DNA from: Escherichia coli
Lineage (GTDB): Bacteria > Pseudomonadota > Gammaproteobacteria > Enterobacterales > Enterobacteriaceae
Direction: 5' to 3' (one strand)
NCBI RefSeq assembly: GCF_024700885.2
Contig: NZ_CP117016.1
DNA length: 64,000 nt
Made by a program: the position numbers and the translations under genes. Of the stretch, positions 18,162 through 18,205 are shown one piece after another (the first letter of the stretch is position 1; each line of letters begins with the position of its first letter). The notes under the pieces are model-generated. The model was not told the origin of the DNA. It made no database searches and was given only the letters and a program-made list of their open reading frames with translations.

Positions 18162-18205
18162 CATTACAAAACTGTTTTAACTTTCTGTCAACAAGTTTTG
18201 TAATG
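18162..18205. promoter_or_regulatory. Candidate TetR-type operator in the bdcA-bdcR divergent intergenic region
   Basis: Perfect 11-bp inverted repeat CATTACAAAAC ... GTTTTGTAATG within a 70-bp intergenic region. Confidence 0.4.

What the first reader, a model, noticed from the sequence alone, without database searches (positions are those of the whole stretch)
18162..18205. Perfect 11-bp inverted repeat spanning the bdcA-bdcR divergent promoter region
CATTACAAAAC and GTTTTGTAATG are separated by 22 bp within a 70-bp intergenic region, and the distal arm overlaps the bdcR start codon. This is a plausible TetR-type operator for BdcR autoregulation and bdcA control.
Basis: seen in the sequence. 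Interest (0 to 1): 0.25.

Follow-up and report, generated by a model that had tools for sequence, protein, structure and literature searches.

The report
Two BdcR operators, mis-paired as one repeat
The inverted repeat between the E. coli genes bdcA and bdcR is real, but its two arms are the facing halves of two separate 22-bp repressor-binding sites of an ordinary TetR-family (CifR-like) gene switch.

Summary
The repeat is present as described. In this window it is one base longer: arms 18162-18173 and 18194-18205, 12 nt, 20 nt apart. It is not chance (P about 0.002 locally).

It is not a functional unit. In 79 distinct bdcA-bdcR loci from alpha-, beta- and gammaproteobacteria, the conserved features are two palindromes of fixed geometry, TTWTGTA-N8-TACAWAA:
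- O1 (18150-18171) lies over the published shared -10 region and transcription starts of the bidirectional bdcA/bdcR promoter.
- O2 (18196-18217) lies over the bdcR start codon and codons 3-5, which are conserved at synonymous sites even in high-GC genomes.

No other locus has a comparable long repeat (4-9 bp).

The closest characterised relative is P. aeruginosa CifR, which shares the DNA-contact residues. It binds two operators in its own divergent intergenic region, one dimer each. A matrix built from the BdcR-family sites picks out exactly two sites in that region, one of which matches the crystallised CifR operator.

BdcR binding itself is untested. This is a new member of a known kind, of modest interest.

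The parts
18162..18173 (.). It consists of the last 3 bases of the O1 spacer, the O1 right half-site and 2 flanking bases. It contains both -10 hexamers.
   Evidence: promoter elements from PMC3946193 and PMC12825309 Table S2
18194..18205 (.). It consists of 2 flanking bases, the O2 left half-site and the bdcR ATG. Position 18194 is A/G polymorphic in E. coli.
18150..18171 (.). O1, predicted BdcR operator 1: TTATGTA-ACATGCAT-TACAAAA. By analogy with CifR, the full footprint would be about 26 bp (18148-18173). It covers bdcA positions -16 to +6 and bdcR positions -29 to -8.
   Evidence: Zero mismatches to TWWTGTA-N8-TACAWWA. Scores 25.0 bits with a matrix trained without E. coli. The site is present at the same place in 79 of 79 distinct loci, with TGTA/TACA 82-100% conserved.
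18196..18217 (.). O2, predicted BdcR operator 2: TTTTGTA-ATGGTCAC-TAAAAAA. The right half has A where the family consensus has C. The expected footprint is 18194-18219. It covers the bdcR ATG and codons 2-5, which is bdcR +18 to +39 and bdcA -41 to -62.
   Evidence: Scores 25.2 bits, the top hit in the 64-kb window. Present in 79 of 79 loci. Synonymous-site conservation.
18142..18147 (+). bdcR promoter -35 (TTGATT)
   Evidence: PMC3946193; PMC12825309 Table S2. The sequence is identical to the window over 18142-18191.
18165..18170 (+). bdcR promoter -10 (TACAAA), inside the O1 right half. The published Cappable-seq start site maps to about 18179.
   Evidence: The mapping of the published sequence onto window coordinates is mine.
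18186..18191 (-). bdcA promoter -35 (TTGACA on the - strand), between O1 and O2
   Evidence: The family consensus here is GTCAAGG.
18163..18168 (-). bdcA promoter -10 (TGTAAT on the - strand), overlapping the bdcR -10. The published start site maps to about 18155, inside the O1 left half.
18138..18143 (-). bdcA Shine-Dalgarno (AAGGAG on the - strand), overlapping the bdcR -35 by 2 nt
   Evidence: Read from the sequence. CTCCTTG is 62-91% conserved in the family.
17419..18132 (-). bdcA (yjgI), an NADPH-binding short-chain dehydrogenase/reductase. It is the predicted regulated target.
   Evidence: PMC4171110
18203..18796 (+). bdcR (yjgJ), a TetR-family regulator with CifR-like DNA-contact residues (R12, P50-P51, Y54, K60) and a G112-C113 pair

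Best explanation
The bdcA-bdcR spacer carries two separate operators for the TetR-family repressor BdcR. Each is a 22-bp palindrome of the form TTWTGTA-N8-TACAWAA, and each is most likely bound by one BdcR dimer.

O1 (18150-18171) sits on the shared -10 region and both transcription start sites of the bidirectional bdcA/bdcR promoter. A dimer bound there would exclude RNA polymerase from both promoters, repressing bdcA and autoregulating bdcR.

O2 (18196-18217) sits 46 bp downstream. It covers the bdcR start codon and its first codons, just upstream of the bdcA -35. A dimer there would block or reinforce repression of bdcR and may strengthen repression of bdcA.

It has no function of its own.

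By analogy with CifR:
- The Pro-Pro recognition helix would sit in the major groove at the inner part of each half-site, around the end of the N8 spacer and the adjoining TACA core.
- The N-terminal arginine of the G-R-P-R arm would sit in the AT-rich minor groove at the outer TTW/WAA.
- An unknown ligand would release the repressor.

What is shown: the sequence anatomy, the conservation, the published promoter and start-site positions, and the homology to CifR and its operators.

What is inferred: BdcR binding, stoichiometry, the effect on each promoter, and the inducer.
For: (1) All 80 loci recovered with a BdcR-family protein query have a divergent bdcA homologue. The query patterns lay in the helix-turn-helix, not in the N-terminus or the spacer. 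Spacers are 68-75 bp in 77 of the 79 distinct loci.

(2) Every one of the 79 distinct loci has two TGTA-N8-TACA sites at fixed positions. The GTA/TAC core columns are 88-100% conserved, while the flanking spacer columns are near random.

(3) N8 is constant, whereas the O1-O2 distance varies from 44 to 50 bp.

(4) The O2 right half lies in codons 3-5 of bdcR. In 33 loci with bdcR GC3 of at least 0.75:
- codon 4 is ACA in 27 of 33;
- codon 3 ends in T in 31 of 33, whatever amino acid it encodes;
- Thr codons elsewhere in the same genes end in A/T only 9.8% of the time (n=283).
The constraint is therefore on DNA, not protein.

(5) A matrix trained without E. coli scores E. coli O2 at 25.2 bits and O1 at 25.0 bits. 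The next-best site in the 64-kb window scores 13.3. The background maximum is 13.8 over 343,286 positions.

(6) The recognition helix is invariant across the family (INPPS.YAAFGSK). It matches CifR (PDB 6NSN; E=1e-18).

(7) CifR binds two operators in its divergent intergenic region, one dimer per 23-27-bp site. Arg6 sits in the AT-rich minor groove and Pro44/Pro45 in the major groove (PMC10827105).

(8) The BdcR-family matrix picks exactly two sites in the P. aeruginosa cifR-morB spacer, at 35.5 and 28.4 bits, 50 bp apart. Apart from a 2.0-bit overlapping offset of the stronger site, nothing else in the 3.6-kb locus scores above zero. The reverse strand of the stronger, cifR-proximal site fits the published base numbering of the crystallised duplex (T4-T6 and C15-A16-C17-T18) exactly.

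(9) O1 coincides with the published -10 elements and start sites of a promoter shown to fire in both directions in vitro (PMC12825309, PMC3946193).

(10) bdcR is described as a negative regulator of bdcA (PMC6598151, citing Ma et al. 2011).
Against: - No direct binding data for BdcR were found. The primary paper (Ma et al. 2011) is not in the library.
- E. coli BdcR is a divergent member of the family: it is only 53-64% identical to the homologues in the 79 non-E. coli loci, and residue 10 is Pro where most members have Arg.
- E. coli O2 has a degenerate right half (TAAA instead of TACA).
- Overall identity to CifR is only 30%.
- The role assigned to O2 (roadblock or co-operation) is conjecture.
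- Part of the O1 conservation could reflect promoter function rather than repressor binding.
Confidence: 0.8

Rival explanations
1. One reading: the two 11-12-bp arms form one long-spaced operator, bound by BdcR as a single unit. This could be one dimer, or two dimers with one per arm.
For: The repeat is perfect, unlikely by chance, and lies in the divergent promoter of a TetR regulator.
Against: - The arm centres are 32-33 bp apart. A CifR dimer spans adjacent major grooves (37.9 A).
- Each arm on its own is not palindromic.
- In 78 other distinct loci the longest perfect repeat across this interval is 4-9 bp.
- The O1-O2 spacing varies from 44 to 50 bp.
- The outer half-sites (18150-18156 and 18211-18217), which this model ignores, are as conserved as the inner ones.
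- The 12th pair is polymorphic within E. coli.
Confidence: 0.05
2. Promoter symmetry only: the repeat reflects the pseudo-symmetric -10 region of a bidirectional promoter plus a fortuitous -10-like TGTAAT at the bdcR start codon. No repressor is involved.
For: The left arm contains both mapped -10 hexamers. Bidirectional promoters are intrinsically symmetric (PMC12825309). The right arm contains TGTAAT.
Against: - O2 is not at a promoter, yet it is as conserved as O1, including its half inside the coding sequence at synonymous sites.
- The same matrix finds two sites in the cifR-morB spacer, where CifR binds two operators; the stronger site matches the crystallised operator.
- The conserved outer AT-rich flanks match the Arg minor-groove contacts seen for CifR.
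Confidence: 0.07
3. RNA structure: the arms, or the O2 palindrome alone, form an mRNA hairpin that controls bdcR translation or terminates transcription.
For: RNA spanning both arms folds to -14.4 kcal/mol with z=-3.5. In the O2 palindrome the start codon would lie in the loop.
Against: - The published start sites (about 18155 on the - strand and about 18179 on the + strand) mean neither mRNA contains both arms.
- No terminator-like site lies there and there is no U tract.
- There is no Rfam match.
- The real bdcR leader folds worse than shuffled sequences (z=+1.06).
- O2 hairpins in four species are no better than shuffles (z from -1.4 to +0.4).
- O1 has the same motif but, given the mapped start sites, is not contained in either transcript.
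Confidence: 0.04
4. A chance repeat in AT-rich intergenic DNA.
For: The region is 72% A+T. The 11-mer also has a one-mismatch match elsewhere in the window.
Against: The local probability is about 0.0016. Both arms coincide with elements conserved across three proteobacterial classes.
Confidence: 0.02

Closest known systems
CifR and its two operators in the cifR-morB divergent region of Pseudomonas aeruginosa (PDB 6NSN; Ballok et al. 2012; PMC10827105)
   Same: - The DNA-contact residues match: Arg6=R12, Pro44/45=P50/51, Tyr48=Y54, Lys54=K60. The Gly106-Cys107 pair matches G112-C113.
- There are two operators per divergent spacer, about 46-50 bp apart, with a GTCAAG (-35) element between them.
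- The operator form is the same, T-rich flank, TGTA/TATA, N8, TACA/TAAA, A-rich flank. BdcR-family matrix scores are 35.5 and 28.4 bits.
   Different: - Overall protein identity is only 30%, so the two are not orthologues.
- The target is an FMN oxidoreductase/cif operon rather than an SDR.
- The spacer is 125 bp rather than 70 bp.
- The cifR-proximal site ends about 12 bp upstream of the start codon, whereas BdcR O2 overlaps the ATG and codons 2-5.
- CifR binding and its epoxide response are demonstrated. Those of BdcR are not.
TetR with tetO1/tetO2 between tetA and tetR (Tn10), the archetype
   Same: A TetR-family dimer, two palindromic operators in a short divergent spacer overlapping both promoters, and simultaneous control of the target and the regulator gene. 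This comparison rests on established knowledge, not on anything tested here.
   Different: The tet operators are 15-bp palindromes 11 bp apart. The BdcR sites are 22-26 bp and 46 bp apart centre to centre, and one extends into the coding sequence. Recognition probably relies on a Pro-Pro helix plus minor-groove arginine, as in CifR.
Bidirectional promoters with a shared -10 region (Warman et al. 2021; PMC12825309, which uses bdcA/bdcR as a test case)
   Same: The left arm and O1 right half are the shared -10 region. Divergent start sites lie about 23 bp apart, and both RNAs are made in vitro.
   Different: That work addresses RNA polymerase competition. In the passages I read, it does not discuss BdcR or an operator at this promoter.
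AcrR/acrA-acrR operator (E. coli TetR-family)
   Same: A palindromic operator, 24 bp long (from memory; only the sequence was seen), overlapping a bidirectional promoter between the regulator and its target.
   Different: A single operator with an unrelated sequence (TACATACATT...). The regulator belongs to a different TetR subfamily.

Membership tests
TetR-family repressor/operator switch at a divergent promoter | The regulator carries the TetR_N helix-turn-helix domain | tested here: met
   PF00440 E=2.5e-13, 50 bits against a cut-off of 24. RefSeq annotates it as a TetR/AcrR family regulator.
TetR-family repressor/operator switch at a divergent promoter | The regulator is divergent from its target, with a spacer under 200 bp (criterion of Ahn et al. 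2012, PMC3511530) | tested here: met
   70-bp spacer. All 80 related loci are divergent from a bdcA homologue, and the spacer is 68-75 bp in 77 of the 79 distinct loci.
TetR-family repressor/operator switch at a divergent promoter | Palindromic operator(s) of about 15-30 bp overlapping promoter elements | tested here: met
   O1 and O2 are 22-bp palindromes. O1 overlaps both -10 hexamers and the start sites.
TetR-family repressor/operator switch at a divergent promoter | The regulator binds the operator directly and represses transcription | not testable with these tools
   Only secondary statements that bdcR negatively regulates bdcA were found (PMC6598151). No EMSA or footprint was found. Ma et al. 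2011 is not held.
TetR-family repressor/operator switch at a divergent promoter | A small-molecule ligand releases the repressor | not testable with these tools
   The ligand is listed as 'No data available' in PMC6790063.
CifR-type subgroup of TetR regulators (mode of DNA recognition) | N-terminal Arg (G-R-P-R arm) and a Pro-Pro recognition helix with Tyr/Lys backbone contacts | tested here: met
   R12, P50-P51, Y54 and K60 align with CifR Arg6, Pro44/45, Tyr48 and Lys54. All are invariant in the 14-sequence family alignment.
CifR-type subgroup of TetR regulators (mode of DNA recognition) | Two operators of about 23-27 bp in the divergent spacer, with AT-rich outer flanks | tested here: met
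   E. coli O1 and O2 are 46 bp apart, and the family range is 44-50 bp. The matrix-predicted CifR sites are 50 bp apart and are recognised by the BdcR-family matrix.
CifR-type subgroup of TetR regulators (mode of DNA recognition) | Orthology to CifR (same ligand, same target operon) | tested here: not met
   30% identity. The target is an SDR rather than morB/cif. BdcR therefore works like CifR but is not CifR.
Bidirectional promoter with shared -10 region | Divergent start sites 10-23 bp apart using overlapping -10 elements, with both RNAs made by RNA polymerase alone | not tested
   Taken from PMC12825309. The published 50-bp sequence is identical to window 18142-18191. The consensus scan here found no strong sigma-70 match.
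Intrinsic terminator or regulatory RNA hairpin | A stable stem within one transcript, followed by a U tract or showing covariation | tested here: not met
   No terminator-like site at the repeat. The arms are not co-transcribed given the mapped start sites. The leader and O2 folds are no better than shuffles. No Rfam match.
   The longest perfect repeat with a 10-35 bp spacer is 4-9 bp in the 78 other loci. The O1-O2 distance varies from 44 to 50 bp.

The most novel reading that the evidence does not exclude
BdcR is a CifR-like, cysteine-based sensor of an electrophile (an epoxide or related compound). It controls a horizontally mobile detoxification module consisting of the NADPH-dependent SDR BdcA and its repressor, packed into a 70-bp fully overlapping control region. 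The module is conserved across alpha-, beta- and gammaproteobacteria.

On this reading, the E. coli 'biofilm dispersal' phenotype is a side effect of that chemistry. The second operator also constrains the repressor's own N-terminal codons, a dual-coding stretch (ACT-ACA-AAA) maintained even in genomes with about 80% GC3.
Probability: 0.3. Interest if true: 0.5.

Novelty: new member of a known kind. Interest (0 to 1): 0.3.

Why it matters
BdcA and BdcR are cited as biofilm-dispersal genes, but neither the BdcR binding site nor its inducer is described in the literature I could search.

This analysis provides several testable items:
- a concrete operator model: two sites and a usable position matrix;
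- an explanation for the constant spacer of about 72 bp;
- a structural template, CifR-DNA (PDB 6NSN);
- a lead on the signal: the conserved Gly-Cys pair that senses epoxides in CifR.

It also gives the regulatory layer missing from the recent use of bdcA/bdcR as a model bidirectional promoter. The kind of system is entirely conventional, so the result refines annotation rather than changing how such switches are understood.

Tried and rejected
- The consensus promoter scan found no sigma-70 site in 17900-18450. The published promoter elements are weaker than the scan's threshold, so I relied on the literature instead.
- I tried to read Ma et al. 2011, the primary BdcR paper, by PMC id and by DOI. 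I also tried Ballok et al. 2012 on the CifR sites. None is held.
- I looked for YjgJ ChIP-seq peaks in the BoltzNet paper. The yjgJ model failed their quality filter and no supplements are held.
- RNA explanations were rejected: the fold of both arms, the fold of the real bdcR leader, O2 hairpins in four species, and an Rfam search.
- NCBIfam has no specific BdcR model. All of its BdcR matches fall far below their cut-offs.
- The next-best matrix hit in the window, at 40991-41012 (13.3 bits), lies within the background range (maximum 13.8). I treat it as chance.
- Variation within E. coli is too low to say anything about constraint beyond the single A/G site at 18194.

Full report
**Observation.**
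The window carries CATTACAAAAC at 18162-18172 and its reverse complement GTTTTGTAATG at 18195-18205. The repeat finder extends this to 12-nt perfect arms, 18162-18173 and 18194-18205, with 20 nt between them.

The flanking genes are bdcA and bdcR:
- bdcA is on the - strand with its start codon ending at 18132. It matches SDR families.
- bdcR is on the + strand with its ATG at 18203. It matches TetR_N.

RefSeq annotates both genes under these names in thousands of E. coli genomes.

The repeat is not chance. A 12-nt perfect inverted repeat appears in 0.16% of simulations of the local 88 nt. The window has 6 such repeats against 0.14 expected. The 12th pair (18173/18194) is A/G polymorphic within E. 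coli. Many strains therefore have the 11-bp form.

**What is already published for this spacer.**
- A genomic SELEX study lists the bdcA promoter as TTGACA-17-TGTAAT and the bdcR promoter as TTGATT-17-TACAAA (PMC3946193).
- A 2026 study uses bdcA/bdcR as one of five model bidirectional promoters. Its 50-bp sequence is identical to window 18142-18191. It reports Cappable-seq start sites and in vitro transcription in both directions (PMC12825309).

Mapped onto the window, by my own mapping:

| Element | bdcR (+ strand) | bdcA (- strand) |
|---|---|---|
| -35 | 18142-18147 | 18186-18191 |
| -10 | 18165-18170 | 18163-18168 |
| Start site | about 18179 | about 18155 |

The left arm of the repeat is therefore the shared -10 region. 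The right arm lies at +16 to +27 of the bdcR transcript. Neither mRNA contains both arms.

I found no paper describing a BdcR binding site. The primary BdcR paper is not held.

**Comparative evidence.**
BdcR homologues outside Escherichia are only about 55-64% identical, but their helix-turn-helix is nearly invariant.

A scan of one genome per species returned 80 loci from alpha-, beta- and gammaproteobacteria. The search patterns lay in the helix-turn-helix, so nothing was selected on the spacer or the N-terminus.

Every locus has a divergent bdcA homologue, 72-85% identical where the match is full-length. The spacer is 68-75 bp in 77 of the 79 distinct loci.

The spacers share a fixed layout, in this order:
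- CTCCTTGA
- TTAATGTAG-N6-CTACATAAA
- about 20 variable bases
- GTCAAGG
- ATTTTGTA-(start codon)-NNcAC-TACAAAA

This amounts to two palindromes of identical geometry, TTWTGTA-N8-TACAWAA. The GTA/TAC core columns are 88-100% conserved, and neighbouring columns are near random.

The N8 spacing never varies. The start-to-start distance between the two palindromes ranges from 44 to 50 bp, with a mode of 47.

In E. coli the sites are:
- O1 = 18150-18171 (TTATGTA-ACATGCAT-TACAAAA)
- O2 = 18196-18217 (TTTTGTA-ATGGTCAC-TAAAAAA)

A matrix trained without E. coli scores them at 25.0 and 25.2 bits. The next-best site in the 64-kb window scores 13.3 bits. The background maximum over 343,286 positions in the other loci is 13.8 bits.

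**The O2 right half is constrained as DNA, not as protein.**
It falls in codons 3-5 of bdcR. In the 33 loci whose bdcR has GC3 of at least 0.75:
- Codon 4 is ACA in 27 of 33.
- Codon 3 ends in T in 31 of 33, although it encodes eight different amino acids.
- Thr codons elsewhere in the same genes end in A/T only 9.8% of the time (n=283).
- Lys is AAA only 9.7% of the time elsewhere.

Its left arm consists of the last three bases of the O1 spacer, the O1 right half-site and two flanking bases. Its right arm consists of two flanking bases, the O2 left half-site and the ATG.

All four E. coli half-sites are versions of TTTTGTAATG:
- TTATGTAACAT
- TTTTGTAATGC
- TTTTGTAATGG
- TTTTTTAGTGA

The two inner ones happen to be the best matched, at 10 of 11 positions.

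Across the family, the similarity between the O1 right half and the O2 left half averages 7.0 of 11. That is the same as the symmetry within each operator (6.9 and 7.3 of 11). No other locus has a perfect repeat longer than 9 bp across this interval. The long repeat is therefore a by-product specific to E. coli, not the conserved feature.

**Closest characterised relative.**
The best solved-structure matches are 2I10 (uncharacterised) and CifR of P. aeruginosa (6NSN; E=1e-18). Overall identity to CifR is 30%, but the DNA-contact residues coincide (invariance):
- CifR Arg6 = BdcR R12, in the G-R-P-R arm
- Pro44/Pro45 = P50/P51
- Tyr48 = Y54
- Lys54 = K60

The CifR paper reports the following (PMC10827105):
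- There are two operators in the cifR-morB spacer.
- One dimer binds per 23-27-bp site.
- Arg6 sits in the AT-rich outer minor groove at T4-T6.
- The Pro-Pro helix sits in the major groove, where mutating C15-A16-C17-T18 weakens binding.
- The cifR-proximal site binds about 10-fold more tightly.

I fetched the P. aeruginosa locus (L084). The BdcR-family matrix finds exactly two sites there:
- 1464-1489, AAATTTATAGTGATCGATACAAATAA, 35.5 bits
- 1414-1439, ATATCTGTATCGGTCGCTAAATAATA, 28.4 bits

Apart from a 2.0-bit overlapping offset of the stronger site, nothing else in the 3.6-kb locus scores above zero.

The reverse strand of the stronger site, TTATTTGTATCGATCACTATAAATTT, has T at positions 4-6 and CACT at positions 15-18. 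This matches the published numbering of the crystallised duplex exactly. The two sites are 50 bp apart with GTCAAG between them, as in the BdcR family.

The operator type is therefore experimentally validated in a relative with the same recognition surface. Its stronger score for the cifR-proximal site also matches the reported affinity order.

**Mechanism.**
This section is inferred. One BdcR dimer binds O1 and one binds O2.

O1 covers bdcA -16 to +6 and bdcR -29 to -8. Occupancy there should exclude RNA polymerase from both promoters, giving bdcA repression and bdcR autoregulation.

O2 covers bdcR +18 to +39 and bdcA -41 to -62. It could block elongation or promoter escape for bdcR, and could reinforce repression of bdcA.

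The family consensus shows an extremely compact design. Each gene's Shine-Dalgarno sequence overlaps the other gene's -35 (CTCCTTGA on the left, TCAAGGAG on the right). This explains the near-constant spacer length. The E. coli right-hand copy has decayed to GTCAACAAG, or GTCAACAGG in other strains.

**Rivals.**
- A pure promoter-symmetry explanation cannot account for O2.
- RNA hairpin explanations fail for four reasons. The arms are not co-transcribed. There is no terminator or Rfam match. The true bdcR leader folds worse than shuffles. O2 hairpins are no better than shuffles in four species.
- Chance is excluded.

**Limits.**
- There are no binding data for BdcR itself.
- E. coli BdcR is a divergent family member, with Pro10 where most members have Arg.
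- E. coli O2 has one core mismatch.
- The published start-site coordinates were read from plain-text formatting marks in a supplementary table, so they are good to within a base or two.

**Verdict.**
It is a new, well-supported member of a known kind, a CifR-like TetR dual-operator switch on a bidirectional promoter. Interest is modest.

The most interesting by-product concerns the Gly106-Cys107 pair, which CifR needs to respond to epoxide. It aligns with the invariant G112-C113 of the BdcR family. This suggests a testable class of inducer.

Noticed in passing
window 18536-18541 (BdcR G112-C113); alignment A1: BdcR Gly112-Cys113 align with CifR Gly106-Cys107, the pair required for epoxide- and NEM-triggered release of CifR from DNA. 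The pair is invariant in the 14-sequence BdcR-family alignment. BdcR may be a thiol-based electrophile sensor; its ligand is unknown in the literature.
   Followed up: partly
L002-L080 (bdcA at about 1210-1930, bdcR at about 2001-2590 in each locus): BdcA is 72-85% identical between E. coli and alpha- or betaproteobacteria (full-length matches), while the adjacent BdcR is only 53-64% identical. The protein search found almost no BdcR homologue between about 66% and 80% identity to the E. coli protein. The module looks widely and perhaps horizontally distributed, with the E. coli regulator an outlier.
   Followed up: partly
window 18138-18147 and 18186-18194; family consensus: In the family, each gene's Shine-Dalgarno sequence overlaps the other gene's -35 (CTCCTTGA on the left, TCAAGGAG on the right, themselves an inverted pair). 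In E. coli the right copy has decayed to GTCAACAAG or GTCAACAGG, leaving bdcR without a clear Shine-Dalgarno sequence.
   Followed up: partly
window 18194: This position is an A/G polymorphism within E. coli. A gives the 12-bp repeat, and G gives the 11-bp repeat and a slightly more Shine-Dalgarno-like AGG. The O1 and O2 cores were identical in all five sequences compared.
   Followed up: yes
L001 (SFGN01000138.1, labelled a Lachnospiraceae metagenome-assembled genome): This contig encodes BdcA and BdcR proteins 97-98% identical to the E. coli ones. It is probably E. coli DNA placed in the wrong genome bin.
   Followed up: no
window 20071-20356, inside ORF 19516-21387: An 18-bp tandem repeat of 15.9 copies (85% matches) encodes hexapeptide repeats (LNNSQE-like) within a 623-aa ORF downstream of the DUF386 gene.
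   Followed up: no
window 14395-14421, 15017-15050, 32423-32450, 58946-58993, 61099-61140: Five other perfect 12-nt inverted repeats with 3-24 nt spacers, against 0.14 expected in total. They may be terminators or other elements but were not examined.
   Followed up: no
window 40991-41012: The next-best match to the BdcR-box matrix (13.3 bits, TAATATGTAGCCCCTAGAACAAAAAG), about 280 bp upstream of an ORF starting at 41288. It lies within the background range (maximum 13.8 bits), so it is probably chance.
   Followed up: partly
E. coli genome collection: The bdcA-bdcR region is absent from about 610-660 of 5,426 complete E. coli genomes. It occurs on plasmids in three records, which fits an accessory, mobile module.
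   Followed up: no
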